A DNA stretch of 63,452 bases, the filler included, from Chrysochromulina tobinii (taxonomy: Eukaryota), in NCBI GenBank assembly GCA_001275005.1. It is 4 parts of 4 records of this genome, joined end to end, with 100 filler letters (N's around TTAATTAATTAA, not from the genome) between each part and the next. Parts side by side here need not be neighbours in the genome. Positions count along the whole stretch, not along the records: positions 1 to 23,560 come from JWZX01001356.1; 3 more parts are not named here. One strand, written 5' to 3'. Both the position numbers and the translations under genes were made by a program. The notes under the pieces were generated by a model. It ran no database searches. It was not told the origin of the DNA and saw only the letters and a list, made by a program, of their open reading frames with translations. Below, piece after piece: positions 5,619-45,903 of this stretch. The first letter of the stretch is position 1. Each line of letters starts with the position of its first letter.

Positions 5619-6317
5619 GGACAGCACGGCCACCCTCCTGTGCTACGTGGGAGGGGGCATCCGGAACGCTGACGTATATTCCGCGTGTCAGGCCGCAGGA
5701 TCGTGTGGTGCAAGGCCCCCTCCCGCCCCCCTCATGGTCTGACTGCAGACTTCAATTTATGCTTGCCCAAGTCTGGTACACCTAAAGCTCAAGCAGAGAT
5801 GATAGAGCATCTCTCAGATCGGCTGTTGCAGTACTTACGCATTTTTGCCGTGGAAAACTTTAGTCGAATTCCTTTACATGCGATAATTTGACCCAAATAA
5901 CGGGGGAGCCGGGGGAGGTATTCTATTTTTCTTCCGATTGTCCGCGTCTCAGACAGACCACACTCGCCACCCGCAGGACGCTCCGCGTTCCCGCCGCCGA
6001 CCCGCCCTGCTCGGCTCGGCCCTGATTTCCTGTTTCGGGAACTCAGTGATTAACAGAAACTCGTAAGATGCCACACTCATATTGTTGTATTCGGCTACGC
6101 AACGGTGCTTCACCCATCAGTCTCCCCGAACCGCACTATTTCGGGCCGGGCCCTGACTTGGGCAGACGCCGAGTTGGCGTGTCTGTGGACCTCTCTCTCT
6201 CTCTCTAGACTCTACTCGGAGGTTAGGCTAGCCCATGCTAATTCATGCGATCGCGGACATCGAGTTAGCTGGTGCGACTCGTCGCGCCAGTGATCCTTGT
6301 TGTATCGCCACCTTCCA

Positions 6318-9300
6318 TCACGTCTTCTGGCTCTTCCTCAAATCCTTCTCCTGCTCCGAAGGGGCGCTCATCACGACCTGCGGCACAACCTCAATGATCT
6401 TGACGGTGACCTTCTGCATGTTCGGCCCATAGACAGTCTCCTCCTTTTCGGAGCGCGGCTCGAGATACGTGCACGGCGGGTAGACGCATTCGAACTCATC
6501 TGGGTATACTGAGAAGGGTTGCACGACGGCCCCCATGTGAGCAGCGGAGTCGACGCGCACCTTGAGCAGCAGTGGCATCAAGGGGGCCTCCGGATTGAGC
6601 TTCATCCGCGCCGCCACGTCAGCAAGTACGCCCTTCTCTGAGATGGCGCGGTTCATCGACATGGACATCGGGCTCAGCTCAGTGCCACCGCGCTGCTTGA
6701 ACTCGGAGGCAACATCCAGGTTGCACATGCCACGCCAAAGTACCCTCTGGGGAGTGCTCTTAGCGCCGGCGGTCGTCTCATCGTCGGGTGCGCCAGCGAC
6801 TGCCGCGGCCGCCGCGGCTGCGGCCGCCGCCGCCTCGGCTGGCCGCGCATTAGCCTTGGCCATCTCGGCCGCGCGGAGCTTTTTGATGGCCTCGGTGAGC
6901 AGTGCGACGAGGGCGGGGTACGGGTGCGGCCGCTCCGGCGAGCAGCCATCGTGCAGCGGCCGGTTGATCGACCGAAAGACGGAAGATGAGTACAAGCGAA
7001 GTGCGAGCACGTGCGCGCGCTTGAGCCCGGCCGAGGCCGCGGCAGGCAACGCCACGAAGTCGTCGAGGCTGAGGCCCCTGTTCCCCTGGTCGATGTGCGA
7101 CGCGGGCTTGAGCTTCCCAGAGTCCTCAGGCAGCGATGGCAGGCGCGAGAAGTCACCGGAGCGGTGGGAGCGCACGTAGGTGAGCCAGTCCCTCTGCGTC
7201 CAGCCGTACTCGTCCGTATCGGGCTCCGCGGCGCTCGCACACGCCGTCTCGATCTCGTCGATGATGGCGCCTTCGCCGCCCAACATCTTGGCCCTGAGTT
7301 CGTCTTCCGTCTGCAGCCCGAGGAGCTTGTGCAGCGCGGACAAGCCCTCAATCGGGCGGCCAAAGCGAATCTTCTCAGCGAGGTACTTGTTTTCAACACT
7401 CGTATGGTCGTTGATGGACGAGGCGTCGAACATCAGCTCGTTGAGCGACTTAGGTGCCGCCGCCACGGTGGCCTCGCGGTCGACCTGCATGAGGACCATT
7501 TGCTCCTGGCAGAGCGGGCATACCATCGGACGCCCTTGCAGCTCTGTACACGCCCAGCGCGTCGGGAGCCCCTTGTGCTCCGTGTGCTTGGCGCAGCCGG
7601 GGCAGCCGAGCTCGGCCACAGCCGTAAGGCCGGGAAAGTCGTGGATAATGGCGTCCGCGATCGCCTTGATCTGCAGTAGGATGGCCCATAGCTCATGACG
7701 GTTGGACTTCTTCCCGCGCATCTCCATGCACAGCTCATACTCGCCTTTCTTGAGAGCCTTTTCGTGTGTCGAAGTCTTCTCGCCCGACACGGCGCCCGTG
7801 CGCAGCTCGAGGAGCAGCAGCGCGGAATCTTTGGTGCGCGTCTCGATGAGCGCGCCGCTCTTCCAGAATCGATGATACTTGCCGAAGCCGTAGCACGAGG
7901 CCGTGAGCCGCTCCGGAATCCCAGGGGGGGCGATGCTCCCGATGCGATAGGACATGGCGAGCGTCTCGCGCGCGTCGCCGTCGGCGTGGCCCATCGCCTC
8001 ATTCCACTTCCACATAGCATCGGTCGGTTGGTTGGGCGGCAGGCGCATCGGCATCACCCAGCGGCGCCCCTGCTGCGTGTGCTCTGCAAGGAAGAGGACG
8101 CCACTCACGCTCATCATCAGCAACACCTCGGCGTAATCGTCGCGCTCCAGCCCGAGAGAATCCCACATGAGGGGGAGCAACTCCTCACGAAGCTCGCCGC
8201 TCTTGACCAGGCAATCTATGGCCGGCAGCAGCGTCGCCGCGCGCTGCTGGTCGTCGCCGATCAAGAGCGCGCCTGTGTGGCCCTTCGTGAAGAATTGGCG
8301 GTTGAGCCGGTGGTCGACGAGCGGCTTGAGCAACCGCACGACGTAATTGGGCTGCAGGTAGATGATGCCGCAGCTCGCGAAGATCTCGCCCTGGTTGACG
8401 AGCAGCTGCAGCGCGTCATCTAGCACTGCGGCGTCGCCGGCCAGCCCCATCTTGGCCGCCACCTCGTTGACCCACAACTGCTTCGCAGAGCGCACCGTCA
8501 TGTACGCGCGGGATCCAATCTCGCGGTTCTCGGCGTCCCACTCGCCGCCGCCGCCGCCGCCGCCACCGCCGCCGCCGCCGACGCCGCCGCTGCCGCCGCC
8601 GACGCCGCCGTGGGCGCTCTCGCCCGCTGCCGGCGTCGCCTCCGTGCTGTCCTTTTTCGCTTGGCGCTGATCGATTCCAACGACCTTGGCCGCTTCGATG
8701 GGATCGCGCCCGTCGCGCAACGCGCGCAGGTACGTCATGGCGAGCACCCACGTGCGAGGGATAGTCTGGCCGACCGAGGGGAGCAATGGGGGCTTGGCGA
8801 GCAGGAGGGACTCGATTTGGAGGCGCAGAGAGCTCAGCGACTGGTCGCCACCCGCGATGGATGAGACGCACATGACCTTATCCTGCACACGCAGCGAGCG
8901 TTTCTTGACATCAAGGGCGCTCTGGTGGCGCTCGACTCCCTTTTTGATCCAGTCGATCTGCTTGAGCGCCGCGTGTGCAAAGGCCTCGTGCGAACGATCC
9001 TTGGCGTCGTCCGGCACGAGCTGGTCGCAGTGTGTGAGCACGAACTGCACGACCGCGTCGGGTGCGCCGGTCGTCAGGTAGTCCATCCAACGGCCGAGCA
9101 CATTTGAGTACTCCGAATCGAGCCATTCCACGGGATTCGCGGGCACGGTCATCAAGTAGAGCGACCCCGGTACAATGTACGGCTGCAAGCCCGCCGCGTA
9201 CTGCGGCTGCCCCGCGAGGTCCCACATCGAGACGAGCACATGCCCGTTCTCCTTGGTCGAGTCTCCCACGGCCATCGAATAAATGTCGAGCTGGATGGTT

Positions 9301-12300
9301 CGCTCGTCTTTCCCTGCCGGGCGGGGCGCACCCGCACGCAGCCCGCGCTGCAGCGACGTCTTGCCGCTCTCGCCGTGACCGAGCAGGACGAGGCGCGCCG
9401 TGTTGGCCGTGGTCTCGCCGCTCTTGACGAGCTCTTGGAAATAGCGCCGGATGGCGGCGATGCCCTGCTTTGCAAGCGAGAGCGGCGGCCGCTGTAGCGG
9501 ATTGTCCCTCACATCGATGCGCTCGAGGTTCTTGAGGTTGCACACGGAGAGCACGAGGGCGCCTAGCCGGTTCTCGGCGACGTCGAGGTGCTTGAGCGAG
9601 TTGAGCTGCCCGATGGAGACGGGCAGGTAGGTGAGCAGATTGGAGCGCAGGTCGAGGGTCTCGAGGTTCACCAGCAGCCCGAGAGACGCGTGGAGCTCGT
9701 AGATGCGGTTGTTGTGCACCGAGAGCTTCTTGAGAAAGCGTAATTGGCACAGGTCTTCGGGAAGGGTGGCGAGCTTATTGCCCGAGATCGAGAGCGTCTT
9801 GAGTGAGAGCATCTTGCCGACCGAGTTGATCTCCTCGATCTGGTTCTTGTCCATCGAGAGCTTCTCGAGGCCGGCTAGCGCGCCCATGGACTCGCACAAG
9901 AGGTTGAGCTGCTCCTTTTGCTGCGCCAGGTACCGCTTGAGCGAGTCCATGCTCATCGTCTTGAGCTCCTTGTCGCCGAGGACGCGCACGTTGCTCGATA
10001 TGTCCAGGGTCTTGATCGGCGTCGTCTTCAGCTGGTCGACGATCGCCGTCAGACCTTCCGGCCCCATGTCGTTCGTGTTCACGTTGAGATCGGAGAGGGA
10101 TGTGTTGTTTGTGACGAGTGCACCGACGATGACGGAAGAGACAAAGGTGAGGCTCTGTTTCGAAAGGTCAATCGAGCGGCCGGTCTTCGCATTGAGCCCC
10201 TTGAGAAGGTGCACAGGCAGCAGCCCGCCCTCGAGCACGATCATCTGCAGCGATGGGTTCAAGCGCACCGCTTCCGCGAGCGCAAAGACGCCCTTGTAGT
10301 TCTGCTTGACGGAGAGATCCGCGTTCGGGTCGATGGTGCACAGGGGGTTGTTGGACAGGTCGACGGTCGTGATGGTAGTGTTTTTGAGGAAGGCGGTGGC
10401 CAGCGCAGTCGCGGCCAATGTCTCGAGGCCCGTGTTGGACAGATCGACGGCCGTGATCGAGTTGTTGAACTTGAGCACGCCGGCGAGCATGCGGTACGCT
10501 CCCGGCGCGAGCTGCTGACCGCGCAGCTTCAGCTCCGTCGCGTCCGATTCGATCTCGAAGGCGTAGCATTTGAGGGACGAGAGCTGGCATTGGCAGTCGT
10601 CGCTCAGCAGCAGACCACCCATCATCCACAACCCGTCGTCCTCGATCGGGTTGTCGCGCACGTCGAGCGCCGTGAGCGAGTGGTTGAGCTTGATGGCGCG
10701 TGCAATCACGTTGGCCGAGATGGCGTTGTTCGAGATGTCGAGCGACGTGATCGCACACTGCTCAGTGCGCAGCACCTCGACAAAGAGGATCCCGATCGCC
10801 GAGTCAGTCAACTTATTGGACGAGAGCTTCAGCTCCTTGAGGAACAGGCACATGCCCTGCTGCAGCGACTCGAAGAAACGAGTGCCGCCGCGGTCGCCCA
10901 GGCTAATCTTGGACAGGTTGAGCGTGCTGAGCGTCGACGCCTTCGCGCGCTGCAGCTGCTCGAGCACGCCCCCGCCCTCCGACGAGGATCCGGGGTTGAG
11001 CCGAAGCGACTTGACCGTCTGGTTGACGGCGAGCAGCGCGCCCACGACGGCGCATGCCCACCGGTGCAACGCTGCCGGCACTCGGTTGTCCTTCTTGTCG
11101 GTCTCCTCGACGGTGAACCCCACATCCCACAGGTCGATCTGCTCGACGCTCCGATTGCCGTTGAGCTCCTGAACGGGCAGGACGGCCAACGCGACCTCAG
11201 AGCCACGCCCTGGGTGCTCGAGGTGGAGCGACTGGAGCGTCGAGTTGGTTTGGAGCGCTTCGGCGAGCGCCTCCACGTGCTCGGCCACCACGGAGCGGAG
11301 CGTGAGCTTCGTGAGGGACGAGTTTGAGCGGAGAAGTCCGCAGAGCAGTACAAAGGAGCGGAGCGACCGGACGTGCTCGCGATCTCGCAAGTCGTACACG
11401 TGGCTGGTCATGCCCGGGTGAAGCTCATAGATGTCACAGTAGCCCACCTTGCCCTCCTTGTTCGCGAGGAGAGCGCGGCCGAGCTCCTCGCGCTCGGCCT
11501 CGCCGAGGTCGCCGCCGGGCGCCATGGTGATCTCGGTCAGGGTCTTGTTGGCCTTGAGCACGCCGGCGAGCATGACCGCGTCGCACGCCTGCGCGGACTT
11601 CCACGCGAGCGTGCTCGTCTTCTCATAGAGGGCAAAGATGTCGCACTGCAGGAAACAGAGCTGATTGCCGCTCTCGAGCAGCGCGCGCCCTATCATCTCC
11701 TTGGCTCGAGAGTCCAGATGAAACGTGCGCTCCATACGCGACATGGGCTCCGCCTCGACGATGCCAATCGATTCCAAGCGGAGCCCTTTGACGCGTAGGA
11801 GCTCGGAGAGCGCCGGCTCGCGCCCCGGATTGTTGTACGACACGTCGATGCGTCGCATCGCATCACACGTACGGAGCGCCTGGCAGATGATTCGAATCCC
11901 ATCGGGGCCAAGCCCATTGTTGGATACATCCAGCGTCGTGAGCGTCTTGTTCATAGCCAGGCCGCGCCCGAGCGTGCGCAGCAAGTGCTTGAGCCCGCCG
12001 AGCACATTAGATCCCAAATCGAGCGAGGTGAGATTGGGTGCCGTCATCAGCATGCGCGCGATGCCCGCCGCGTCCGTCTCGCGCTTGCCCACGCCGTTGC
12101 CGGCCAGGTTGAGCGTGACGAGCTTCTCATTCTTCTCCATGATGAGCCAGAGCGCCTGCAGCCCCGTCTCTCTCAGCAGCGCATCTTGCTTCGAAAAGTC
12201 CCATGAGGGTCTCCGCTTGGCGAGCAGACTGCCCAGGAAGCCGCCGGCGATGCGGCACGTGTTGTTCATGAACGGGTTGTTCAGGAACTTGGCGGCGGTC

Positions 12301-14045
12301 GCGTCGGTCGCCCAGCCTTCCCAACCATCTTGGGCCTGAATCAGCAGGTGCTGCGCGAAAAGGCCCTCCTGGAAGGAGAGGTGCTTGAACTGGTACTGCG
12401 CGGCGGCCACCTCGGTCTGCACCTCGAGCGTCTTGGTGAGCGGCATCCCGTTGTCCTCCTTGTTCAGGTGGAGCCAGAGGGTGAGACCCTCTGGGTTGGG
12501 TAGGTCAAGCAGCAGCGCCTGCGCCACGTGTGCCGACGAGAACTCGCGCCGCCCATTGATCTGGTTCATCACGGCCACGTTGCGCAGCATTGAGAGGCCG
12601 AACGACTGAGCGCGCTCACCAAGGAGCATCTTGAGGTTCGCATTGACGAGCATCATCACGGTGTCGACGAGCTTCTTGGGCATGAGCAGCTCGATGCGGT
12701 TGAGCTCGGTGCGCTGCACCTCGGGCTTGACCGCCTCGCGCAGATAGTGCGAGCCATGCTTGAAGACCTCGTACACCTCATTGGCCGTCAGCTTGAAGAC
12801 CTGCTTCTCCTTCGACTCGCCTTTCGCTACGCTATTGTTCTCCTCCTTTTTGACCTTCGCGTCCATCCCATCATTGAAGCGCAGCTCCTCAAACTTCGTC
12901 TGTGCCTTGCGCGACGGCTTCTTTTCGCGCTCCTTGACTGGAGCGCTCGTCTCAACACCAACCTTGGTGTCCTTCGCGTCCTTGCCCTTGGCGTCCCCAG
13001 TATCCTTTGCCGCCATCGCGGCGCCACGGTCAAGGTTGAAGAGGCGCATCCACTCGTGCACGAGGTGATCGGTCGAGGTGAGGTCTCCGGACACCTGGCT
13101 GCGCAGCAGCCGCTTTGAGATGGCACTCTCGATGCCGAGCTCGTAGAGCTCGATGCGGTTCGAGGGCAGCTTCGTCAGGTCCTCGCCGCCCGAGGTGAAG
13201 ATGAGCACGAGCAGCGAGAGCAGCACGGGGATGCCGGTCGCGTCCACGAGGAAGACGAGCTTCTCCTCGAGCAGCTTATCGAGCTCAGCCTCGGGATAAT
13301 GGCCGGCGAGCCGCTGCCGGAAGAAGTGGTAGTGGCCGTACGCCTCGTTCTTCGGATCGAGTGCGATCTTCATCACGTCCTCGTAGTGCAACTCGGCCTC
13401 GCCGTACATGAAGAAGTCGCGGAATGAGATTTTGAGCACCGCCACCGCGAGCCGAAAGTGCGTCGGGTCCAGATCCTCGAACTTGTTGCGCAGTTGCACC
13501 ATCGTGATTTCGACGCACTCGCCCTCAACCTCTTCACCCTCTTTGTTCACGTAGAACTTCTTCTTCGCAGGCTTTGCGATAATGTTGCCGTCCGCGTCGA
13601 GCTTCGGAGGACCGCCGTCAAGCAGCCCGTGCTTGATGATCTCTGGCCATTTGGCGCTGTCGTTGTCGTCCACCGGTAGTGGGGCCGAGGTCTGCAAGAG
13701 CTGAACCAGCTGGATGATCTGCGTGCCCGTCTTGCACGGTATGCGCGCACGCACCACGTCTGTCACGCATGCCTCGACAAGCCCGCCGCCCTCCGAAACG
13801 CGTCCACCAAGAGGCTCGTCCATTGCCTTCTCGTGGCAACGCACCGGCTCCTTGAGCTCGCCAAATATGGTATCGTTCACGAGCGCACTCGCTTCTGCTG
13901 GGTCTCGCGCCACCTCCTTGAGCAGGAACTTGAGCACGAAGGCAAAGACGGGCAAGAACTCCTCAGCTAACATGTACAACTCGTCGGTCCGCGCGACGAT
14001 GCGCTGCCAGCATGCGGCCGCTGAGATCCCCTGCTTCGCCTTCTG

Positions 14046-14104
<59 letters not shown>

Positions 14105-17100
14105 TTGCCTCGTCCGAGGTCTTGTCTTGAGCCTTCCAGTGCAGCAAACCGAGGGGACTCGCTTGCACATCCGCCGTGCCCAGCTTTCGGATCAGCCTGG
14201 CCAGGTTGAGCGCCACGCGGTGGCGCAGCTCCATGCCATCGGAGCCGCACATATCCTCCAGGATCTTCGCCTCGAGTTCACTGGCAGGCGCCGAGGCGGG
14301 CGAAATAGAGAGCACTCGGTCGACTCGATCGAGCAGCGAGATGCCGCAGCGCTGCGGTGTGTGGCTCTTCATCTGCCTGTCAAGCTTCTCGAGGTACTTG
14401 GACGTTGGCGTCTCCCCTGTGCCGAGCTCACGCAGCACCGTGCTGTGCGTCGATGGCGAGCGCAGCTGAGCAGCTGGGTCAAAGTAGGTCACAATGTCCT
14501 TGGGGCGTGCGCCCTCCAAAGTAGGGTCGGCCGCGGACGCGCCTTGGCTAGCCCCAGGCTCGGTTGGTGCGGACGCCGGCTTCGACTGCACCGCGCCTGC
14601 CTTACTGTCGAGTATCTCCTTGTCCCGGAGCTCCATCGTACCTTTTCGTTCCCTGGCGGGCTCCCTGGCGCCACTCTCGCCCTTGCGCGGCGAGCGCCGC
14701 GTTGCCTCGGCCGAAGCGGCGATCGCCGCGTCCTTGTTCTCGTCGGCATCCTCGCCAACAGAGTCGACCTTGTGCAGGCTGTCGACGCAGAGTAGGCCCT
14801 CGAGCTCCGTGCGAACAGACTCCTTGATCTTATTGTACGCTTCGTCGAGCCACTTGCGCACCTCCCCGAGCGAGAGCAGGTGGTCGAAGAACTCGGAGCC
14901 TTGCATCTGGATGTTGATCACGCGTCGCTGCTGCTCGTTAGTGAGCTCGTTCAGGTTCATGATGACGAAGCGCGACCGGTACAAGCTGAGTGTGACGCCC
15001 TCGGGACGGCTCGTTACCAACACGCGGTTGCCGCTCGGTACGAGCTCCGAGTGCACGAACTTTTCGACCTGGTCGCGCAAGCCGGCGGCCTCGTCGACGC
15101 CGTCGAGGAGCACCACGAGCGCGCGCATCTGGTACGCCTGCATGAGCATCGCGCACCATGACTCCATCTTCTTGCCGCTGTACACGGACTCGATGTACCG
15201 AGGCAGCAGTTGGAAATCCCCTTCCTTGTCGCGCTGGCCCTCGCGCACTAGGTACACGATGCGCTGCACGAAGACTACGACCGGTACGAGCCGGATGCCA
15301 TCCTTGTGCCCAGTGCCACCGCCAGATCGAAGCCGGTCGGCGAGAGTGTACACCGCCTGCTTCGCCATCCACGTCTTGCCAGTGCCCGGCCCGGCGCGCA
15401 CGAGCACCGGCTGCGCTGAATGCGAACCCATTGATCGGTTTGGCGAGGGGATGAGCAGCAGCGTCACCAAGTCGCGCACGTCGTTGACGCGCCAATTTTC
15501 GGGCACCGCGCCGGCCGCATTGTCCTGCACGTCGGTCGCGGTGGACACGTGCAGCGTCTGGTCCTTGATGCGCAACAGATTACCCGTGATCGCGTCCTCC
15601 ACCATCGCCTCGCGCTCGACAATATCCTCAAGGTAGTTGAGGCGCGCCATCTCGAACGCAGACACGTCTTTGAAGCGCTGCACCGAGTGGTTGAACTCAT
15701 TAAGGGCCGTCGTGATGAGCACCGCCTCTCCCGCTAGAGACGAGACCATCGAACGCACTGTGCCGTCCTCCATCAGCCGATTCTCGAGCACGTTGACTAC
15801 TGTCCGGTTGGAGAGAGTACCCACTTTGTCCGTCGTCTGCGAGAAGCCCGAGCGCACTATGAGCGGCTTTTGTGAGCTCACCACGAGCTGCGTGTTCGCC
15901 GGCATGTTCACCGCGAGGTCACCACGAACCGCCGACGATGAGCCGTCGGAACTGGCTAGCTTGAAGTACTCCAAGACTTTCCCTGGATTGGCCTCGTCCG
16001 GCTTGCACACCGTCACCCAGCCCGTCGTCGTCGAGCCCTGCACCAGCAGCCGGTGGCGCGAACCCTCCTTGATGTCTGTGGGATTCTGCATCCCCTCAAA
16101 CTCCTTTCCCTGGCCGAGGGCCCACTCCTTCACCTCAGCGTCGCAAGCGGCTCCCTCATGCTGATAGAGAAGCCGCGTGCCCGGCGGGTGTCGCGGGTTG
16201 GTCGTGCGCACGACCGTCTGTGGCGTCGGGTCGATGATCGACTCGGAATTGATCCCATCGACCTTGACGACGACAGAGTCGTCCCTCAGCACTCGCTGCA
16301 CCGTCGCGCATCGACCTTCGGTGCCCGCCCGGCTTGCGCATCGACAACCGCGCGCCTTCCGCGCACCCGTACGCGAGCCAGGGGTTCACCTTGAGCAACG
16401 CCAGATGCAACTCGAGCGCGCCCGTTTGCGGATTCTCCACCCTCCAGTCGACGCGCAGCTCGAGCTCGCCGTCGCCCTGCAGCCCGTCGTGCTCGAGCCC
16501 GTGCTCAGCGCCCACCCGCCACTCATTGGCAAACTCGATCCGGTCGAGGAACTCGATGCCCTTCGAGGGTGCGATCTTCAGGCGGCCGATGACCGCAAGC
16601 GATTTGGTCGATCGCAGGTCGAACGCCTCGGCGTCGGGTAGCGTCGAGATGTCGCCCTGGTACAGCTCGTACCCCGAGCGGTAGCAGTTGAACATGAGGA
16701 TCATCGCCGCAGGCTCTGTGACGCATTCGTGCCGGCTCGGCTGACCTTCGGGTCGACCAGCTGGTCGTTTCGTCTCGTCGCGTGCTAGCCTGTTGAGAGA
16801 GCCCTGCCCACCCGCCTGCGCACGCATCCGCTTCATGAGCTCCTCGGCCCTCTTCTTGTCCTCATCAGACTCTTCGGCTGCGCCGGCCGCCTCCTTCTTC
16901 TTCTCCTTCTCCGCCGCCGCCGCCGCCGCCTTCTCCGCATCCTCCCGCTGACGCTTCTCAAACTCGCGGCGCGCCTTGGCCTCAGCGGCCAGCTTGCGCT
17001 CCTTCTCCTCCTCGAGCTTGGCCGCGGCCGCCTTTTCGGCCGCCGCGCGCTGCTCGTACTCCTTCTTGGCCTTCATCTTGGCCTCCGCCTCCTTTCGCTC

Positions 17101-18777
17101 AAGCTCAATTCGCTTGACCTCGAGCTCCATCTTCGCCTTCTTCTGCGCCTCCTCTCGCGCCTTCTTCTCGTCGAGCTCCTTCTTCGCCTTCTCGTCGGCG
17201 AGCTTCCGAGCCTTCTCTTCAAAGGCGCGCTTCTGCTCCATCGCGCGCTCCATCGCCGCCTTCTCCTCCGCCTGCTGCTTGGCCAAGAGCGCCACTGGGT
17301 CCGAGACGCCAGTCCTACTCATCTCGGGCGAGGCGCCGCGGGCGGTCGCACCGCCGCGGGCGGTCGCACCGCCGCGGGCGGTCGCACCACGCGGGCTCAA
17401 CGACATCGCCTGCATCGGCGAGGTGGCGCGCGCGGTCGAAGCGCGATGCGACGGCATCGGGAAACTCTTCGAACGATTCATCTCCGCTGGCGCCGACGCG
17501 CTCGACGGGATCTCTCGCTGTCGAAGGTTTTCGATCATGTCCTTGGTGAGGACGGTGACCCAGCCGACGGCAGGACCCTGCCAGTTTCCCTCGAGCGCAT
17601 ACGCCGCGCGCCACGACCCGTCGGCCGTTCGGCGCACCTCGAGTAGATGGATCGAAGCGCCAGGGGCTAACTCGCGAGCTCGAGCTGAGCTCAAGTCGAA
17701 CTCTGTTCGTGCCTGCAGCGCCTTCTTCGCACTCACCTCCATCGTCGGTCGGCCCGTCGTTTTGAGGTTGATCGCGCCCGTCGCCGTGATCGACGTGATC
17801 CAGCCATACGGGGCCAGCTGATTGTCGAGGGCGACGCACACGCGGCGCGAACCGTCCGAGTTCTCGCGCTCCTCGACGACGGCACAAGTCGCGTTCGGCC
17901 CGAGCTCACCCGCCTTGTCGCTTGTGAGCTCGAAGGCTTTGCGCACGAGAGCAGGCTTCGTCGCGACGATCAGACCGAGGGGGCGCGAGGCGAGTATCAG
18001 GCGCGCGGCCGCCGGTGGCACGTCGTTGTAGTTCATGGTCGACGGCCCTCCGGTGGTCGACTGCGCCGAGGCCGACGCACCCGCACCGTTGCTGCTGCCG
18101 GCCCGACGCCCCACCAGAAGGGCCAGGTTCTCCGTGCCATCCTTGGTGACGGCTGTGACCCATGCCTTGATGGTGCTGGCGCCCTCAGGCGCGTACCCGA
18201 TGCGCCAAGCGCCGTCGGCCGTCGCGCGCGCCTCGAAAGCATGGATGAACGCATTGACCGCCAGCTCGCCTGCCTTGCCAGACGTGAGATCGAAAGCGTC
18301 GCGCGCGGCCAGTGGCTTGGCGGCGATGACCTGGAGGACAGGGTGGCCGAGCTCATGAAGTTGCTTCTTGCCGTCCTTGGTCACGCCGGTGAGCCATCCG
18401 AGGATGATCGCGGAGCCTTCGGGCGTGACAGCCATTCGCACCGCGCCGTCAGCCGTCTGCCGCGACTCGATTGCGTGCACCGCCTTGCCGCTGGGCAGCT
18501 CGCCCGCCTTGGCTGAATTGAGATCAAAATCGACACGCAGCTGCAGCGGCTTCGAGCCGGACACCTCAAAGAGAGGGCTGATTGCACACTGAATAATCGG
18601 GTAAATCGGCCTGCTTTCTGGGACCGAGCTCAGCCGATCGTTGCTGGACTTCCCACCTTCGTCCTTTGGAGAAGGGCGTTTACTGGCCCTGCGCGAGCTC
18701 GATTTGGCTCTCGCTGAGTCGGAAGACTGGGTATCCGCAGCAGCCATCTTGGTCTTGCTGAGCTTTAAAGGTTTCAT
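6318..18777 (-). CDS. Giant NLR/ROCO-like protein: SH3-like repeats, coiled coil, NACHT with RelA/SpoT-like insert, LRRs, ROC-COR, ADP-ribosyltransferase (frameshift near 16320)
   Basis: Walker A AGPGTGKT (~15373-15396), Walker B VLLDGVDE (~15090-15113), VTSRP, DATGIP, FKHLSFQE (~12370-12390), many LxxLxLxxN repeats (~9490-12150), ROC GHGESGKTS (~9355-9381), WDLAGQ and LTHCD, ART motifs LRLYS..INRPL, LWRG, MSMS, EFE (~6480-7010); ORFs 16156-18849 and 6318-16301 overlap. Confidence 0.85.
14047..14103 (+). repeat. (CCG)n trinucleotide tract encoding poly-Gly on the minus strand
   Basis: Uninterrupted CCG run; a similar Gly-rich tract lies at ~8544-8610. Confidence 0.9.
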
Positions 18778-19453
18778 TTTTTCCAAAGCCGTCCACGCCT
18801 GAATCAAGTTTTTTCCAAACAAAGACGTCAGGTTCAGTTCGTTACACACAAGTGTATGTATGTGTGTGAATGTGAATGTGTGTCTGTGTGACTTCTAACA
18901 CAAGTCAGGTACATGCCGGGCATGGTGCGCGCGATGCGGAGGGAATAACGTGCGGACCCAGGTACTGTGGTGTCGTGTCGTGAAATCTTGTGTACTTGAA
19001 TATTTCGCAACGACGCCGCCCGGGGCGACTTACGGGGCGACCGCCGTATCGACACTGTGAAGGTCTGTCTTCTGTCGGTATCCATGAAAGGACCGAGGTA
19101 GGACCGATGCCAGAGGCCAGTAACCTATGAGGCTGACAGAGGTGAGAGACCGGAAAACCGGAATCGGGGGTCGTGGAGAATCTGGCCCGATGGCTTCACA
19201 TGTCCGGGCGCGATTTGCTTATAATTTGTGGCATCCTAAATTGCGAATTGCATATAGTTTGAGATAGGGTCAGTTGAATCATAAAGCTTCGTACGATTCC
19301 GTAGCAATTTACCGGTAGGTTGCAACGGGCCGTAACTCCCCATGCTCATAGCTTGCGACCTGGTGCCTCTGCCGCTCTGCAAAAAGTGAGGCGGCTGCGC
19401 GGCCTAACTGTTCGCGTTGTCTGAACAACTACAAACGCAAGCCCGGGTACGCG

Positions 19454-20695
19454 ATGGTCATGGTCTGCGTTAGATCCCAGCGCGGCTCTCACCTGCCACC
19501 TTCCTTTGGCATATCCGCGCTGACGCTCCTAATTGCGTTTTGTCCACTCATTTTCGCTGGTTTGTCGCCGTGTGCGCCGAGTGTCGAGTGCCGTGCGAAC
19601 ATCCTCGATTGGTCGGTGCGGCATGGGCCTGGCTTCATCTCGCGCAATCTCGGGTTGAAGCGGCTGACGGTCGAGCTCGACGCCATCCTGCCCTGCACCC
19701 AGCCTGCAAACGGAGATGCGGTCCCTGTTGTCCTTGTAGACGTGGGAGCTGGAATCCACGGGCTGCAACCGCAATTCATCAACTCTGCGAAAAGGCTGCA
19801 CGAGGACGATAGCGATTCGTTGTGGCTCCTCGGAAGCTTTGGTAGCCGCGGGCATGTGCACGCCTTCGAGGCCAACGCGATTAAGGCGAATGAGCTCCGA
19901 TTAGCAGCCGCGACGCGCAGCCGCACCGCGAACTTCACTGCGCATTATACGGTGCATACCGTCGGCGTGGGGAGAACTAACGGTCAGACCCATGTCAATG
20001 AGTGTGGCCCTTGGAATATATGGTCCATCGAGGCGAACCGAAGGAGTTCGGTACGTGGGTGCAAACAGGGCGCTGCCATCGCACTGACTACCATGGATGC
20101 GTTTCTTGCGTCGCTTCCCCTCCGCACGGTGCCTCTCTACATCAAGGTGGACGTCGAAGGAGGCGAGTGGGACGTGCTTGCGGGGATGCATTCCACTCTG
20201 CTGAGCAAGCGAGTCGCGCTTATGTCGTTTGAGTACGCCGTATTCTGGCACAAGTCGTTTCATTCCAATAGGGAATTGTCCGCCGCGCAGAGGCAGAATG
20301 CGAGCAACGTGAGCCTGTATCGCTTCCAGAAGACGTTGACTGGATATGGCTATGACACATACCTCATCAATGCCGGAGACGCCACGAGCGGTGTCGTGCT
20401 TGTGCCGGTGCACGGCGACTTCTGGCACAATGACCTTGAGATCTGCTTTAACCGTTCGCACTTCTACCAAAGAAGCCACTGCTGGAATGACGTGCTCGCT
20501 GTGCGGCAAGGCGACACGTGTGTGCGAGAGGCGCTGTTTGGCAACGCACTGCGCCGGACGCACGAGTCGCTAGGGAGGGAAGTGGACGCTATGCGTTTGG
20601 GTGGCGCGACTGGCCACTCAGTGGTAGCATGGATGCCGCCGTTCGCGGCACATTGCAACTGTTTGTGGGGACCCACAGAGCACACGTCCGTGTAG
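19454..20695 (+). CDS. FkbM-family SAM methyltransferase with N-terminal signal/TM segment
   Basis: VLVDVGAG, VHAFEAN, TTMDAFL, YIKVDVEGGEWDVLAGM, SFEY, GYDTY. Confidence 0.85.
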   Translation: MVMVCVRSQRGSHLPPSFGISALTLLIAFCPLIFAGLSPCAPSVECRANILDWSVRHGPGFISRNLGLKRLTVELDAILPCTQPANGDAVPVVLVDVGAGIHGLQPQFINSAKRLHEDDSDSLWLLGSFGSRGHVHAFEANAIKANELRLAAATRSRTANFTAHYTVHTVGVGRTNGQTHVNECGPWNIWSIEANRRSSVRGCKQGAAIALTTMDAFLASLPLRTVPLYIKVDVEGGEWDVLAGMHSTLLSKRVALMSFEYAVFWHKSFHSNRELSAAQRQNASNVSLYRFQKTLTGYGYDTYLINAGDATSGVVLVPVHGDFWHNDLEICFNRSHFYQRSHCWNDVLAVRQGDTCVREALFGNALRRTHESLGREVDAMRLGGATGHSVVAWMPPFAAHCNCLWGPTEHTSV

Positions 20696-21219
20696 GTCGG
20701 TGAGGGAGGAAACACAAGCGCGATGACGCGCGATGGTGGCGTGTTTGTTAAGTGTTTGTTGGGGTGAACCGACCTAACTCGTTAACTCCTAAGTGAATGC
20801 GGCGATCAACACACGATCGGTCGGTGCCCGCGAGCGCGGACCGGACGTTACGAAAAACTTGGAGGCACGCGGGCGCTGGGGGGTGGGGGAGGCGGATCGA
20901 CTCTGATCCGGCCTGATCCGCTACGGTTGGTATCGACAATTCGGCCGTCAATTCGACGTCGGGCAGTGAAAGGCTGAAAGCACTCGGCTGTAGAAGAATC
21001 CTGAGTCCCTGTTCGCACGGGTATAGGGTGGGTTATAGGGTGGGTGTCTGCAGGCACCGGGTGTCCGATAGGTGTCCGGAAAAACCTCAATCAAAACCAC
21101 ACACCGCCCGTCACTGCTGGGCACGTCAGTTCCCAATTACGGGCCATCTTTCAGGCGATCCGAGAAACGCCACGCCGCGGCGCGTTGGCCCTGCCAGTGC
21201 CAAATAAGGGACAGCGCCC

Positions 21220-23560: not shown

Positions 23561-23660
23561 NNNNNNNNNNNNNNNNNNNNNNNNNNNNNNNNNNNNNNNN
23601 NNNNTTAATTAATTAANNNNNNNNNNNNNNNNNNNNNNNNNNNNNNNNNNNNNNNNNNNN
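23561..23660. other. Assembly gap with artificial TTAATTAATTAA linker
   Basis: 44 N + TTAATTAATTAA (23605-23616) + 44 N. Confidence 0.98.
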
Positions 23661-28344: not shown

Positions 28345-31029
28345 TTACCCGGCGCAGCTGGCGCAGCCGCCCTCGTCGCCGCCGCCGCCGCCGCCGCCGC
28401 AGCCGCCGCCGCAGCCGCCGCAGCCGCCGCAGCCACCGCAACCGCTACCCTTGTTGCGATCGTCCTCACTGAGGTCTTGCGCACCACACGCCATCCAAAA
28501 GCTGAGAGAGAGTGTGGGTACTCCGGCTGCGGCGATGAGCAGATTTGAGTTTAGCGGTGTAGAATCATAGTTGGAATCATAGTTGGTCGCGAGCGGTGTC
28601 ATGCATTTCGCTACCTTCTGGCAGATCTGCAGCGTGATGCACGTGCCGAGCACGAGCGCAATCAGCGCCGCGTGCTCCGCCACTCGGGCAATGGCTGCAT
28701 CGGCGCTGCCGAGCATCGTCTCAGCGTCGCCGCTCAGGTCGGTGATGGTGATGGCGCCGGTGAGCAGATTAGCCGTCACGAGGGTGTGCCCCGGGCGAAG
28801 GATCCTGATCTCGCCGTACGCGTTCTCCCCGCTGCCAACCGTCGTTACCGTCGCCAACATTTCCGGCTGGCCCTGGCGTGACGGATCAAGCTCGTGAAGC
28901 TGCACGACAAATTCTCCATTGGCCCTCCTGGTTCCCCGGGTGCCCTTGAGCCCCGGCGTGTTCCCGACGGGCCTTCTGCCAGGAATACCCGGCGCGCCGG
29001 GGTGAAAGTTCTGCCACGAACAGAGGGCGAGCATCGCATCGGAACCGCTGCTCGTCACGAGCAACCCGACGTCGCTCGTCCGGCCGTCCTGCGTGTAAAC
29101 TTTGCGGGTCTCAGGATCGATCCTCGCGAGCGGCCGGACCCACCGATTCTGGCCAAACACCAAGGGAATCGCGAGCCTACCGCGGGGATCGCGCTTGGGA
29201 ACGGTGGCAGAGTCGACGAGCCGCGCGGCGGCGAGCTCGTTGCCCGCGGCGTCCATCACCTGCACACACGACGCGTCGAGGCTGGCTCCCTCCGCGTGGA
29301 CCACCTTCAGTGTGAACGGAGCGACGTCGCGCTTGAGATTGCCTTTGACCACGCGCTCGCAGACGAGTGCATGCGTCGCCGCCTTGAGGCTGGTTGCCGC
29401 CTTGGCCTTGGCCGAGCCGTCGACTGGCGTCAGAGTCACCATCTCGCCGCCTGGCATGAGCAACACCTCCGGGACGGGCGCGAAGCTGCCCGGCTGCAGC
29501 AGGTAGTTCCACGCGCAGCTCGCCGGCTCGGCAGCGCAGCACAGGCACCTGCTGGCGGCTTCCTCTATCTCCACAAGGCCCTCGAGCGCCCGCGCGATTT
29601 CGGGAGCTGTCTGCGGCATCGGCGGCGGCGGCTGGCCGCGGTACATGCCGCCGTCGATTGCCCAGCCGTGCTCGAAGGCCTCATGCCACATCTGGCGCGT
29701 TGCATCGGCGGACGTGGCCAGCTTCGCGCCGGGCGTGCGGTCGTTGACCGAGTCATCGTGGTCGAGCAGCCGGCCGAAGAGCGCGGTCGTGTCGGCGACG
29801 TAGGATGGCTGCAGCTGGTGCGCATGCCACACGACGTCGATGTCGTACGTTGGCACGAGGAACTTGCCCGGGTTGCGCCGGCGCAGCTCGAGGAAGCAGA
29901 GGTAGCGGGCGACCGCACGCTGTAGGAAGGGCGTCTCGAGGTAATGCGGCAGGCTCACCTGGTAATTGAAGACGTTCTGGCGCTCCACCGCCGCGGCGAT
30001 GTCGTAGCCGATCTTGGAGACGAAGGCGGTCGTGTCTGCGCTGGGCGGCGCCTCCTTGCGCGCGGCGGGGCCCCGCGGCGCCCACGGGACCCAAAAGGGC
30101 TCGTGGCCAAGGCCATGGCTCTCGCAGAAGGCTGCCCATCGTTGCGCGGATGCGGCGAACTCGGCGTCCGTGTACGCCAGGCCGGCCCTTGCGCGATCGA
30201 GGCCGATCCCGGCTGGCCAGGTGCGGCGCTGCCAAGTCGACGGCAGGCGGGTGGGCACGGAGCGAAAGAGGGCCGTGCAGTCCTCCACGTAGTGCTCAGG
30301 CGCCAGTTGATGGCAGAGCCACACCCACGATACGTCCGGGGGCGGCACAAGCATTGAGAGGTCTTTCTCAGCGACCGCCATTGCTGCGAGGGGCATCCAT
30401 ATTGTCTCATAGCGCCGCAGCGCATGCGTGAGCTCGGCCCCCTTGCGGAGGAGGCACGCCGGCACGGAGCGCAGCAGGTATTGCAGATCCTCCGTCGCAA
30501 CCAGCAGCTCGGCCGCTGACAGAGAGAGCGTGACGTCGGGCGGTGGTGCGAGCGTGGGCCGAACGCTCCCGTTCGGGCGCTGGACGGTGATGGTCACGGT
30601 GCCGCCGCTCGCCGTGAGGATCGCGATGGCTTGCTCGACCGAGGCAATCGTCTCGCCATCGATGCTATCTATCAGGTCGCCCCGTCTCAGCCCGGCAGGC
30701 TCCAGGTCATCTTGGAGAAAGACTCGGTATTTCTGCGTCAAGTCGCCTCTCTGTACGTTGATGCCATCCAGACGTTCTCCTGCCTCCTTGCGTGTGGTGG
30801 CGGTGACGATCGTCTCACCCGAAGCGTTGACATGCTTCGTATGCCGCCATTTGGCCGCTGGCACCAGCTGCCCCGCCGGGACTGCAACTGACGACGGGGT
30901 TTGGGCGAAGATGCCTGCCACACCCATTATTTTTGGCGAGAAGAGGCCGGCGACTTCCATTATTTTAGGAACCGTAGTAAACTCGACGCGCCGCGATGCG
31001 CGAAACTTGGACTTTTGAAACGTCTTCAT
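28345..31029 (-). CDS. Glycine-rich domain-containing protein (GRDP/DUF1399 family) with N-terminal PDZ-like domain
   Basis: AGLRRGDLIDSIDG; VPPPDVSWVWLCHQLAP; LVPTYDIDVVWHAHQLQP; LDHDDSVNDR; C-terminal GCGGCGG tail; start codon uncertain. Confidence 0.85.
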   Translation of the reverse strand: MKTFQKSKFRASRRVEFTTVPKIMEVAGLFSPKIMGVAGIFAQTPSSVAVPAGQLVPAAKWRHTKHVNASGETIVTATTRKEAGERLDGINVQRGDLTQKYRVFLQDDLEPAGLRRGDLIDSIDGETIASVEQAIAILTASGGTVTITVQRPNGSVRPTLAPPPDVTLSLSAAELLVATEDLQYLLRSVPACLLRKGAELTHALRRYETIWMPLAAMAVAEKDLSMLVPPPDVSWVWLCHQLAPEHYVEDCTALFRSVPTRLPSTWQRRTWPAGIGLDRARAGLAYTDAEFAASAQRWAAFCESHGLGHEPFWVPWAPRGPAARKEAPPSADTTAFVSKIGYDIAAAVERQNVFNYQVSLPHYLETPFLQRAVARYLCFLELRRRNPGKFLVPTYDIDVVWHAHQLQPSYVADTTALFGRLLDHDDSVNDRTPGAKLATSADATRQMWHEAFEHGWAIDGGMYRGQPPPPMPQTAPEIARALEGLVEIEEAASRCLCCAAEPASCAWNYLLQPGSFAPVPEVLLMPGGEMVTLTPVDGSAKAKAATSLKAATHALVCERVVKGNLKRDVAPFTLKVVHAEGASLDASCVQVMDAAGNELAAARLVDSATVPKRDPRGRLAIPLVFGQNRWVRPLARIDPETRKVYTQDGRTSDVGLLVTSSGSDAMLALCSWQNFHPGAPGIPGRRPVGNTPGLKGTRGTRRANGEFVVQLHELDPSRQGQPEMLATVTTVGSGENAYGEIRILRPGHTLVTANLLTGAITITDLSGDAETMLGSADAAIARVAEHAALIALVLGTCITLQICQKVAKCMTPLATNYDSNYDSTPLNSNLLIAAAGVPTLSLSFWMACGAQDLSEDDRNKGSGCGGCGGCGGCGGGCGGGGGGGDEGGCASCAG

Positions 31030-31574
31030 CGCAACATAAATAACCGCGACAGCGGAAGGCGGGCGCGCTCATTTCTAGTTTGCACGACCACACCAAGCGG
31101 CAAGGACGAACTGGACCAATAGCGCCCGCCGGCCGCGCGCCCAGACTAGCGACGAGGCGACCGGTAGCGGTACCGGGAGACCGGGAACCGGCGCGAGCAC
31201 TGCGCGCGCACGGGTCCGACGACTCTGGCGAGGCGGTGGAGGGCGCGGCGCGAGCGCCGCGCGCATGGTCTCAAGCAGCAGTGTGATATTTTTGGGCTGA
31301 TTCCTCTATAGTCTAAGGGTCGAGCGCTGAGGACTATAGGGTTCTCGACGGACGAGGGTCGGGTCGCTAGCTCGTTCGACCGCGGAGCGCCGGAGGTCCC
31401 GCTCTCCCGCGTCGGGCGAGAAGACAAATCTGGAGCAGAAGATAAACCATACATTGAGCCCTGGCCTCGACAACTCGACAGGAAAGAGGGAACTCGACAG
31501 GAACTCGACATCTCCCAAACAAAGCATTGACATGTCCAAACAAAGCGTTGACATGTACTGGCCTGCAGAGACCT

Positions 31575-45840: not shown

Positions 45841-45903
<63 letters not shown>

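What the first reader, a model, noticed from the sequence alone, without database searches (positions are those of the whole stretch)
6318..18777. Giant NLR-ROCO-ADP-ribosyltransferase: a candidate one-protein algal immune system
Seen: one intronless ~4,150 aa reading path with SH3-like repeats, coiled coil, NACHT ATPase (GPGTGKT, LLDGVDE, VTSRP, GIP, FKHLSFQE), ~900 aa of LRRs, a ROC GTPase (GHGESGKTS, WDLAGQ, THCD) with COR region, CPGC/CPLC and a C-terminal ART. Known: NACHT-LRR proteins are innate immune sensors, normally with an N-terminal effector; ROCO proteins usually drive a C-terminal kinase; R-S-ExE ARTs are typically arginine-specific enzymes or toxins. Inference: an ATP switch and a GTP switch share one LRR array and gate an NAD-consuming effector, for example antiviral programmed death. 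I do not know this architecture from any described protein.
Basis: partly seen in the sequence, partly recalled or inferred. Interest (0 to 1): 0.92.

Follow-up and report, generated by a model that had tools for sequence, protein, structure and literature searches.

The report
Giant algal NLR–alarmone-fold–Roco–ART protein
A real, transcribed algal gene encodes one 4,152-residue protein that joins an NLR-type immune-receptor ATPase, a bacterial alarmone-synthetase-like domain predicted to sit inside that ATPase, an LRRK2-like GTPase and a predicted ADP-ribosylating enzyme, and it likely works as a self-contained stress or infection sensor with its own enzymatic output.

Summary
The gene is real. 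In the window it is two frames, not one. Seven of seven runs covering the break lack one base at 16324, and four other assemblies read through it, so the break is an assembly error. RNA contigs cover the gene without spliced joints. NACHT, LRR, Roc-COR and an R-S-ExE ART are supported by profiles, relatives and predicted folds. It keeps the catalytic Asp and Glu but lacks two other canonical residues, so it may sense nucleotides rather than make them. The full domain order recurs in 11 distinct locus groups and in named Chrysochromulina proteins; the insert marks a wider family (186 clusters). No relatives were found in prokaryote genomes or viral contigs. The LRRs are under purifying selection, the ART triad is kept in 9 of 13 full-length copies, and no infection data exist, so immunity is plausible but unshown. 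Ten literature searches found no description.

The parts
6318..18777 (-). Whole coding sequence, 4,152 aa once the assembly error at 16324 is allowed for; start codon at 18777 is inferred (frame is open to 18894)
16324..16324 (.). One surplus base in the window assembly that splits the frame; absent from 7 of 7 covering runs
   Evidence: L001, L002, L004, L023 open across it
17488..18582 (-). Four SH3b-like repeats (aa ~66-430); variable in number among relatives
   Evidence: self-BLAST and family HMM; Pfam SH3_3 only E 0.81 on the fifth copy; PF08239 precomputed on relative P0048
16798..17280 (-). Charged E/K/A-rich stretch, likely coiled coil (aa ~500-660)
   Evidence: sequence only; not tested with a tool
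15987..16680 (-). Conserved unnamed domain (aa ~700-930), spans the frame error; occurs twice in the P0020-P0022 subfamily
   Evidence: alignment, family HMM; no Pfam hit, no usable Atlas hit
15687..15854 (-). Fifth SH3b-like repeat (aa ~975-1030)
14877..15479 (-). NACHT nucleotide-binding domain: Walker A Lys (codon at 15377), Walker B DGxDE, sensor-1 TSRP
14010..14876 (-). Variable first part of the insertion in helical domain 1: low-complexity linker, poly-Gly run and a helical bundle; EF-hand pairs lie here in P0112 and P0147
13287..14009 (-). RelA/SpoT (small alarmone synthetase)-fold domain inserted inside NACHT helical domain 1 (aa ~1590-1830); Asp1673 at 13760, Glu1793 at 13400
12177..13274 (-). 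Rest of the NACHT module: HD1 GxP motif, winged helix with FxHxxFQE, HD2
9447..12149 (-). About 900 aa of leucine-rich repeats: RNI-like block, then a typical Roco/SHOC2-like block before Roc
8772..9419 (-). Roc GTPase; G1 GK[T/S], G2 Thr and G3 DxxG kept in 20 of 20 aligned proteins
7617..8759 (-). COR domain
   Evidence: fold match to LRRK1/LRRK2/prokaryotic Roco; COR-B E 6e-5 on P0235
7509..7604 (-). CxxC...CxxC predicted zinc site at the end of COR; all four Cys in 18 of 20 aligned proteins, the other two end at or before it
6372..7109 (-). ADP-ribosyltransferase domain, R-S-ExE type: Arg4015 (6734), Ser4038 (6665), Glu4094 (6497), Glu4096 (6491)
6036..6317 (-). Likely 3' untranslated region: RNA contigs of six runs end at 6036-6131 while DNA contigs run on
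   Evidence: table 8; weak hint only, as contigs cannot show an RNA end

Best explanation
This is one 4,152-residue algal protein in which an NLR-type NACHT-LRR switch carries a predicted RelA/SpoT-fold domain inside its ATPase module and is fused to a Roc-COR GTPase and a predicted arginine-type ADP-ribosyltransferase, and it likely acts as a self-contained sensor-effector for infection or cell damage. Shown: one gene, RNA cover, domain order, kept ATPase, GTPase and ART motifs, a paralogous family under purifying selection. Predicted from models: the four folds and the site of the insert in helical domain 1. Inferred: at rest the NACHT is ADP-bound and closed; a conserved trigger (bound by the LRRs or N-terminal repeats, or a nucleotide bound by the RelA/SpoT-fold insert, which sits next to the ADP-clamping GxP helix) would open it; ATP binding would oligomerise it; this would bring the Roc-COR units together, and their GTP cycle would license the C-terminal ART to modify a host or invader protein using NAD+. 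The insert either makes a pyrophosphorylated nucleotide or RNA end (about 45%) or only binds nucleotide and gates the switch (about 55%).
For: One ORF. NACHT: 8 of 30 long relatives pass the Pfam cut-off; model matches NOD2 (Z 10.0, rmsd 6.0, 364 aligned) and NLRP3 (Z 9.4, rmsd 5.3, 334). Insert: best matches of the whole search are B. subtilis SAS2 (Z 10.4, rmsd 4.2, 162 aligned, model 528-772) and CapRel (Z 10.3, rmsd 3.4, 149), with RelP, Tas1, SpoT and Rel also listed; Foldseek 6fgk E 0.024; Atlas RelA_SpoT cluster 0.92, family on 24% of members; PF04607 E 7e-5 in 1 of 82 relatives. Sensor-1 to GxP distance 592 aa against 106-116 in four sister NACHT-LRRs without the insert. Roc-COR: LRRK2 Z 23.4, rmsd 4.3, 471 aligned, LRRK1 E 4.5e-18. 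ART: ART2.2 Z 15.6, rmsd 3.6, 204 aligned; XopAI Z 14.9, rmsd 3.5, 201; HopU1 Z 14.3, rmsd 3.3, 191; full-length relative P0017 passes PF03496. Family: 11 locus groups with the full order among 65 loci; swappable partners in the wider family (EF-hand, Kelch, F5/8, PDZ, other LRR types), as is typical of conflict systems (own knowledge). Each module has conflict precedents: RelA_SpoT effectors on fungal NLRs (PMC4986451), alarmone synthetases on bacterial NACHT proteins (10.1101/2022.07.19.500537), candidate immune ROCOs in brown algae (PMC11378527); NACHT and LRR genes are up-regulated in virus-recovered cells of another haptophyte (PMC12489294).
Against: No functional, localisation or infection data. 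LRRs are conserved between strains: 0 non-synonymous to 12 synonymous differences (window vs L003), 2 to 25 (L007 vs L009), 4 to 27 (L021 vs L019); whole-gene pN/pS 0.07-0.25 in the usable pairs, unlike the positively selected brown algal ROCO LRRs. RNA cover in five culture runs and one freshwater run with no known challenge fits a constitutive role equally well. Neighbours are ordinary genes and PADLOC gives nothing real. ART triad lost in 4 of 13 full-length copies; P0020-P0022 lack Roc-COR-ART. The insert lacks the beta-1 Arg and has Phe for the G-loop Tyr in 106 of 126 rows, and Tyr-to-Phe impairs FaRel2 (PMC11782079). Profile comparison with E. coli RelA/SpoT was not significant, and the residue mapping is by hand from motif spacing and secondary structure. 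NACHT model is of middling quality (mean pLDDT 63.6).
Confidence: 0.52

Rival explanations
1. A constitutive cell-biology signalling hub, like Dictyostelium Roco proteins, LRRK2 or non-immune NACHT proteins: it would couple ATP, GTP and calcium state to the cytoskeleton, flagella/haptonema or membrane traffic, with the ART as a regulatory, non-lethal modifier.
For: Strong purifying selection including the LRRs; RNA cover without known challenge; some 10 stable paralog types at 37-66% identity rather than a fast-turnover cluster; EF-hand pairs in several relatives; Dictyostelium and vertebrate Rocos have diverse non-immune roles (PMC6337361, passages).
Against: Three of the modules (NACHT, R-S-E ART, stand-alone RelA/SpoT fold) are best known from conflict systems; partner domains are shuffled widely in the wider family; the ART decays in 4 of 13 copies, which is unusual for a housekeeping enzyme (own knowledge).
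Confidence: 0.3
2. A guard or decoy receptor: the RelA/SpoT-fold and ART domains are integrated baits or nucleotide sensors, not outputs. They would bind an invader's effector or an abnormal nucleotide, and signalling would leave through the conserved N-terminal unnamed domain and SH3b-like repeats.
For: Insert lacks the beta-1 Arg and G-loop Tyr yet keeps a conserved basic pocket; it sits in helical domain 1, well placed to gate the switch; it is degenerate in P0017 and P0020-P0022; ART triad is optional; the unnamed N-terminal domain is kept even in the subfamily without Roc-COR-ART.
Against: Asp1673 (117 of 126) and Glu1793 (113 of 126) are kept across very divergent relatives, as expected of catalysis; this copy has a complete R-S-ExE set; many insert-bearing relatives show no unnamed N-terminal domain.
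Confidence: 0.15
3. An artefact: two or more neighbouring genes read together, or a pseudogene with a frameshift.
For: The window itself has two frames; no single RNA contig spans the gene.
Against: 7 of 7 covering runs lack the extra base; single ORF in L001, L002, L004; the same order in one ORF in many divergent relatives and in named gene models P0235, P0216, P0225; pN/pS 0.07.
Confidence: 0.02

Closest known systems
Animal NLRs (NOD2, NLRP3, NLRP9; NACHT-LRR)
   Same: NACHT motifs, HD1 GxP, winged helix, C-terminal RNI-like LRRs; model aligns to NOD2, NLRP3 and NLRP9 over residues 1-1130.
   Different: No CARD/PYD-type N-terminal effector; about 480 extra residues with an enzyme fold inside HD1; a Roc-COR and an ART follow the LRRs.
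Fungal NLRs with a RelA_SpoT effector (PMC4986451) and bacterial NACHT proteins with alarmone synthetase effectors (10.1101/2022.07.19.500537)
   Same: Pairing of a NACHT with a RelA/SpoT-type domain (passages read).
   Different: In the fungal proteins the domain is N-terminal to the NACHT and the sensors are WD40/ANK/TPR; here it is inside the NACHT module, the sensor is LRR, and two canonical active-site residues differ. The position in the bacterial proteins was not given in the passage seen.
Roco proteins (LRRK1/2, MFHAS1, C. tepidum Roco; brown algal candidate immune ROCOs, PMC11378527)
   Same: LRR-Roc-COR tandem with G1-G3 motifs kept; fold match Z 19-23.
   Different: ART in the place where group-2 Rocos have a kinase; a whole NLR module in front; LRRs under purifying selection, and this copy is intronless, so no exon shuffling.
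Small alarmone synthetases and toxSAS (RelQ/SAS2, RelP, CapRel, Tas1, FaRel2)
   Same: Fold and strand order; Lys, Lys, Asp, Arg, Glu at the positions of FaRel2 K66, K74, D90, R95, E145.
   Different: No Arg at the R64 position, Arg for S70 and for G93, Phe for Y128; embedded in a eukaryotic STAND ATPase; not detected by Pfam in 81 of 82 relatives at E 0.005.
R-S-E ADP-ribosyltransferases (ART2.2, HopU1, XopAI)
   Same: Fold (Z 14-16) and R-S-ExE triad in this copy.
   Different: Cytosolic C-terminal domain of a 4,152-aa multi-switch protein; the same algal ART module also occurs on kinase, HSP70, ankyrin and C2 proteins.

Membership tests
NLR (NACHT-LRR, STAND) | NACHT P-loop domain with Walker A Lys, Walker B DGxDE and sensor 1 | tested here: met
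   Motifs present; Walker A Lys in 16 of 17 and Walker B in 18 of 18 rows that cover them; own Pfam score 20.8 is under the 26.7 cut-off but 8 of 30 relatives pass; fold match to NOD2/NLRP3.
NLR (NACHT-LRR, STAND) | HD1 GxP motif and winged helix after the NBD | tested here: met
   GxP and FxHxxFQE present and conserved.
NLR (NACHT-LRR, STAND) | C-terminal LRR sensor | tested here: met
   LRR_6, LRR_1, LRR_4, LRR_8 above cut-off.
NLR (NACHT-LRR, STAND) | Uninterrupted NBD-HD1-WHD module | tested here: not met
   Sensor-1 to GxP is 592 aa against 106-116 in four sister proteins; the extra part holds a RelA/SpoT fold.
NLR (NACHT-LRR, STAND) | Recognised N-terminal effector or adaptor domain | tested here: inconclusive
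   No Pfam family in the N-terminal 873 aa; no usable Atlas hit for the conserved unnamed domain; it was not folded.
NLR (NACHT-LRR, STAND) | Ligand-triggered ADP/ATP exchange and oligomerisation | not testable with these tools
   Needs biochemistry.
Roco GTPases | Roc domain followed by COR | tested here: met
   Pfam Roc 40.6 bits; LRRK1 E 4.5e-18; LRRK2 Z 23.4, rmsd 4.3, 471 aligned, COR-only chain 3dpt Z 14.3.
Roco GTPases | G1, G2, G3 motifs intact | tested here: met
   GK[T/S], Thr and DxxG in 20 of 20 aligned proteins.
Roco GTPases, group 2 (LRRK type) | Kinase domain after COR | tested here: not met
   An ART fold follows COR; groups as in PMC6337361.
R-S-E ADP-ribosyltransferases | ART fold | tested here: met
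   ART2.2 Z 15.6, rmsd 3.6, 204 aligned; HopU1 Z 14.3, rmsd 3.3, 191 aligned.
R-S-E ADP-ribosyltransferases | Arg, Ser and ExE catalytic triad | tested here: met
   R4015, S4038, E4094/E4096 in this copy; R+S+second E in 9 of 13 full-length and 26 of 34 aligned domains. Arginine specificity of ExE enzymes is recalled.
R-S-E ADP-ribosyltransferases | NAD+-dependent transfer activity | not testable with these tools
   Needs an assay.
RelA/SpoT synthetases (SAS, toxSAS) | SYNTH nucleotidyltransferase fold | tested here: met
   SAS2 Z 10.4, rmsd 4.2, 162 of 184 aligned; CapRel Z 10.3; RelP Z 9.1; Tas1 Z 8.3; Foldseek E 0.024.
RelA/SpoT synthetases (SAS, toxSAS) | Mg-binding Asp and beta-5 Glu, basic helix Lys residues | tested here: met
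   D 117, E 113, K 106 and K 108 of 126 rows, mapped by hand to FaRel2 D90, E145, K66, K74 and to E. coli RelA motifs.
RelA/SpoT synthetases (SAS, toxSAS) | beta-1 Arg (FaRel2 R64) and G-loop Tyr (FaRel2 Y128) | tested here: not met
   R64 position variable; Y128 position Phe in 106, Tyr in 4 of 126. So not filed as a canonical (p)ppGpp synthetase. Mapping is by hand.
RelA/SpoT synthetases (SAS, toxSAS) | Sequence-level membership of PF04607 | tested here: inconclusive
   1 of 82 relatives at E 7e-5, 23.5 bits against a cut-off of 27; no hit for the window protein; profile against E. coli RelA/SpoT not significant.
RelA/SpoT synthetases (SAS, toxSAS) | Pyrophosphate transfer from ATP to a nucleotide or tRNA | not testable with these tools
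   Needs an assay.

The most novel reading that the evidence does not exclude
Haptophyte algae have their own undescribed class of NLR immune receptors in which an alarmone-synthetase-fold enzyme is built into the ATPase switch and makes a nucleotide signal or blocks tRNA when the receptor opens, and in one branch a Roco GTPase and an ADP-ribosyltransferase add a second, separately gated output: a whole sensing, signalling and killing pathway in one polypeptide.
Probability: 0.25. Interest if true: 0.93.

Novelty: new variant of a known kind. Interest (0 to 1): 0.8.

Why it matters
Antiviral mechanisms of bloom-forming microalgae are largely unknown (PMC12489294, abstract and passages), and this family gives concrete, assayable candidates: each enzyme domain is small enough to express alone. 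Structurally, an enzyme fold inserted inside the helical domain of a NACHT switch, and an NLR fused to a Roco protein, were not found in ten literature searches; they would show a new way to couple a STAND switch to an output or input. It would also extend RelA/SpoT-fold chemistry to a large cytosolic eukaryotic family that current Pfam models miss and that databases label only 'LRR protein', 'NLRC3' or 'hypothetical'. Even under the housekeeping rival it is a Roco protein with an ART where LRRK2 has its kinase.

Tried and rejected
No whole genome is held for the window, so copy number in this genome was not counted directly. Prokaryote or viral origin: 108 pattern matches in GTDB genomes and 40 in viral contigs, none confirmed; these scans rest on two short patterns, so distant relatives are not excluded. 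One cluster member labelled as an archaeal MAG (P0313) sits on a 2.3-kb contig and was set aside as probable mis-binning, untested. Sequence searches of the PDB with the ART, the insert and relative P0337 found nothing real; only folds did. Profile comparison of the insert with E. coli RelA/SpoT was not significant (the template had two sequences). PADLOC gave one chance hit. The Atlas gave no usable hit for the unnamed domain; the Atlas query for the ART did not complete. Joints listed at 90% likeness occur in DNA runs too and vanish at 97%: paralog cross-mapping, not introns. Selection pairs dropped: L007 vs L008 (pN/pS 0.45, caused by a frame break in the L008 ART tail) and window vs L005 (synonymous sites saturated). 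The NBD tree (quick method, 56 rows) groups most full-length proteins (SH-aLRT 95) but cannot say whether the four insert-free proteins are ancestral or have lost it. An early note that Roc was degenerate in several paralogs was wrong: core motifs are kept in 20 of 20. PF27087, precomputed on most relatives, is not in the Pfam copy at hand and was not identified. A recalled 2015 review on ART natural history was not held and may mention such fusions. No complex prediction was run.

Full report
1. Observation. The minus strand at 6318-18777 holds two long frames, 16156-18894 (912 aa) and 6318-16385 (3,355 aa), out of phase; GC3 switches frame near 16350. Public runs hold the stretch: 18 of 22 listed rows, 6 of them RNA. 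Of 8 runs laid, 7 cover position 16324 and all 7 lack one base there. Allowing for it gives one ORF of 4,152 aa. L001, L002 and L004 carry it as one ORF and are codon-identical; they may come from the same organism as the window, so they check the assembly only. L023 (99% identical) and run X14 (own variants) are different strains and agree. The junction peptide aligns without a gap to relatives. RNA contigs cover 6036 to about 18900 and give next to no cover over 18964-21000, which serves as the silent control; no spliced joints at 97%. They are short pieces, so a single transcript is likely, not shown.

2. Roc and LRR pass Pfam cut-offs; NACHT (E 3.6e-4) and ART (E 5.4e-4) fall just short. 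NACHT is settled by relatives (8 of 30 long ones pass) and by the model of aa 1068-2197 (pLDDT 63.6), which aligns to NOD2 (Z 10.0, rmsd 6.0, 364 aligned), NLRP3 and NLRP9; Foldseek ranks NLRP7 first but only at E 3e-3. The model of the last 1,035 aa (pLDDT 76.7) matches LRRK1 (E 4.5e-18), LRRK2 (Z 23.4, rmsd 4.3, 471 aligned) and, over its C-terminal part, ART2.2 (Z 15.6, rmsd 3.6, 204), XopAI and HopU1. The ART has R4015, S4038 and E4094/E4096. Five SH3b-like repeats are detectable by self-comparison; Pfam support is weak. The CxxC pair closes the COR domain. The LRR stretch has an RNI-like block and then a typical block that matches SHOC2, C. tepidum Roco and, running into Roc, LRRK1.

3. 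What was missed. Between sensor 1 and the GxP motif lie 592 residues, against 106-116 in four sister NACHT-LRR proteins (L054, L057, L059, L060), so the extra sequence is an insertion in helical domain 1. Its last 240 residues are conserved. In a search of 48,161 chains the two best matches of the whole NACHT model were small alarmone synthetase 2 (Z 10.4, rmsd 4.2, 162 of 184, model residues 528-772) and CapRel (Z 10.3, rmsd 3.4, 149), tied with NOD2; RelP, SpoT, Rel, Tas1 and SAS1 follow. Foldseek (E 0.024), the Atlas (0.92, PF04607 on 24% of the cluster) and Pfam (2 of 54 members at E up to 1; 1 of 82 at E 7e-5) point the same way, each weakly. Against the FaRel2 residues listed in PMC11782079 (passages), mapped by hand on 126 rows: K66 Lys 106, K74 Lys 108, catalytic D90 Asp 117, R95 Arg 103, E145 Glu 113, Q147 Gln 79 or Glu 39; but R64 is not kept, S70 and G93 are Arg, and Y128 is Phe in 106. 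That paper uses Y128F as an impaired variant. The domain is thus a RelA/SpoT fold with an altered site: another acceptor, or a nucleotide sensor. A second conserved domain (aa 700-930) has no family.

4. Family. A whole-length search gave 24 proteins of 2,585 scored, 22 of them true relatives at 32-72% identity. Eleven of these show the full order NBD-insert-HD/WHD-LRR-Roc-COR-Zn-ART (P0001-3, P0005-10, P0016 with a cut NBD, P0017), others are fragments or stop at an intron before the ART, and P0020-P0022 end in a second unnamed domain plus LRRs instead. Among 65 metagenome loci, 24 in 11 groups show the full order; some are intronless, some have introns. Six of ten clusters looked up, and P0014, hold proteins named from Chrysochromulina tobinii or C. 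parva, labelled 'leucine rich repeat', 'NACHT domain', 'hypothetical' or after a neighbouring gene; P0235, P0216 and P0225 have the whole order. The insert alone finds 186 clusters at 50% identity, 150 listed; of the 145 new ones 78 also show NACHT parts, 36 of the 37 that are 800 aa or longer, and none shows Roc or ART. They include a Prymnesium parvum protein and a C. tobinii 'nlrc3' (2 named eukaryote hits among 10 looked up, the rest unnamed) and carry LRR, EF-hand, Kelch, F5/8 or PDZ domains. So NACHT plus insert plus LRR is the core, and Roc-COR-ART is one branch. The ART module also occurs on unrelated kinase, HSP70, ankyrin and C2 proteins. Nothing was confirmed in prokaryote genomes or viral contigs. 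A haptophyte host for the window is inferred from these relatives and the eukaryotic neighbours; range beyond haptophytes is open.

5. Selection and context. Strain pairs give pN/pS 0.07 (window vs L003), 0.13 (vs L023), 0.09-0.18 (L007 group), 0.10-0.11 (L021 group) and 0.25 (L013 vs L015); LRR differences are nearly all synonymous (two pairs dropped, see Tried and rejected). Walker A/B, Roc G1-G3 and the four cysteines are almost invariant; the ART triad is kept in 9 of 13 full-length copies, the full R-S-ExE in 6. Neighbours are an FkbM methyltransferase, a cation exchanger, an ArfGAP, a Dus and similar genes: no defence cluster.

6. Mechanism. Established knowledge of STAND proteins: ADP-bound closed state, trigger-induced ATP exchange, oligomerisation, effector activation by proximity. 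Applied here (inference): the insert lies beside the GxP helix that clamps the nucleotide, so either opening of the switch frees its active site or ligand bound to it opens the switch; oligomerisation would cluster Roc-COR, whose GTP cycle would gate the ART as it gates the kinase of LRRK2. I put a sensor-effector role in infection or damage at 0.52, a constitutive signalling hub at 0.30, a guard with decoy domains at 0.15. Conserved LRRs argue against a fast-evolving ligand repertoire but fit sensing of a conserved trigger.

7. Literature. Ten full-text searches listed no paper on this architecture or on a RelA/SpoT domain inside a NACHT; most hits were seen only as listings. Passages were read in PMC12489294, 10.1101/2022.07.19.500537, PMC4986451, PMC11378527, PMC9503650, PMC3153485, PMC11782079, 10.64898/2026.09.21.753143 and PMC6337361; no supplements were opened, and domain-architecture tables in them, or subscription papers, could list these proteins. 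NACHT paired with an N-terminal RelA_SpoT domain is known in fungi, and alarmone synthetases are listed among bacterial NACHT effectors, so the pairing has precedent; the insertion inside HD1, the NLR-Roco fusion and the ART after COR do not, as far as searched.

8. Verdict. Real gene, assembly error in the window, architecture confirmed and extended, function untested. New variant of the NLR and Roco kinds; interest 0.8.

Noticed in passing
window 16324: Single-base assembly error; the window also has three gaps written as 44 N + 12 bases + 44 N (23561-23660, 34755-34854, 48474-48573), so other frame breaks in it may be artefacts too.
   Followed up: yes
window 18852-18902: CA-rich stretch just upstream of the start codon draws very deep contig cover in DNA runs (bin depth 2,340-5,077 against about 40-90) and loose ends in RNA runs: a repeat shared by many loci, perhaps a common 5' element.
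   Followed up: no
P0273 / P0284 (relatives): A Tpt1/KptA RNA 2'-phosphotransferase (NAD-using) fused to a NACHT domain clusters with the P0021 subfamily; P0284 (6,360 aa) has an extra NACHT in front of the insert-bearing one, suggesting tandem or fused NLR pairs (also L025, L029).
   Followed up: partly
P0112, P0147, P0110, P0160 (relatives): EF-hand pairs, and in P0160 a PDZ domain, lie just before the RelA/SpoT-fold domain, so the insertion site collects further regulatory domains and may bring calcium control.
   Followed up: partly
L054, L057, L059, L060: Compact NACHT-LRR proteins of the same clade without the insert: natural controls for the role of the insert.
   Followed up: partly
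P0020-P0022, L027-L030: Subfamily with N-terminal LRRs, a degenerate insert, and a second unnamed domain plus LRRs in place of Roc-COR-ART.
   Followed up: partly
L031, L032, L042, L050-L052: Intron-rich paralogs of a family whose other members are intronless over 10-12 kb: possible retro-copying or massive intron gain or loss.
   Followed up: no
window 34803-36260 (-): ORF in a lower-GC stretch (0.53-0.60) whose C-terminal part resembles, by eye, the self-cleaving chaperone tails of phage fibre proteins; no Pfam hit at E 0.001.
   Followed up: partly
window 41297-43738 (+), 45002-46855 (-), 28345-31068 (-), 49596-52169 (+), 57773-60904 (+): Multi-EF-hand protein; RNI-like LRR protein; PDZ plus GRDP-like protein; BAR-PH-ArfGAP-ankyrin protein; Dus followed in frame by a LON substrate-binding domain (fusion or two genes).
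   Followed up: partly
window 8534-8617 and 14039-14111: Two poly-glycine runs in the gene where contigs break; length differs by a codon between assemblies.
   Followed up: no
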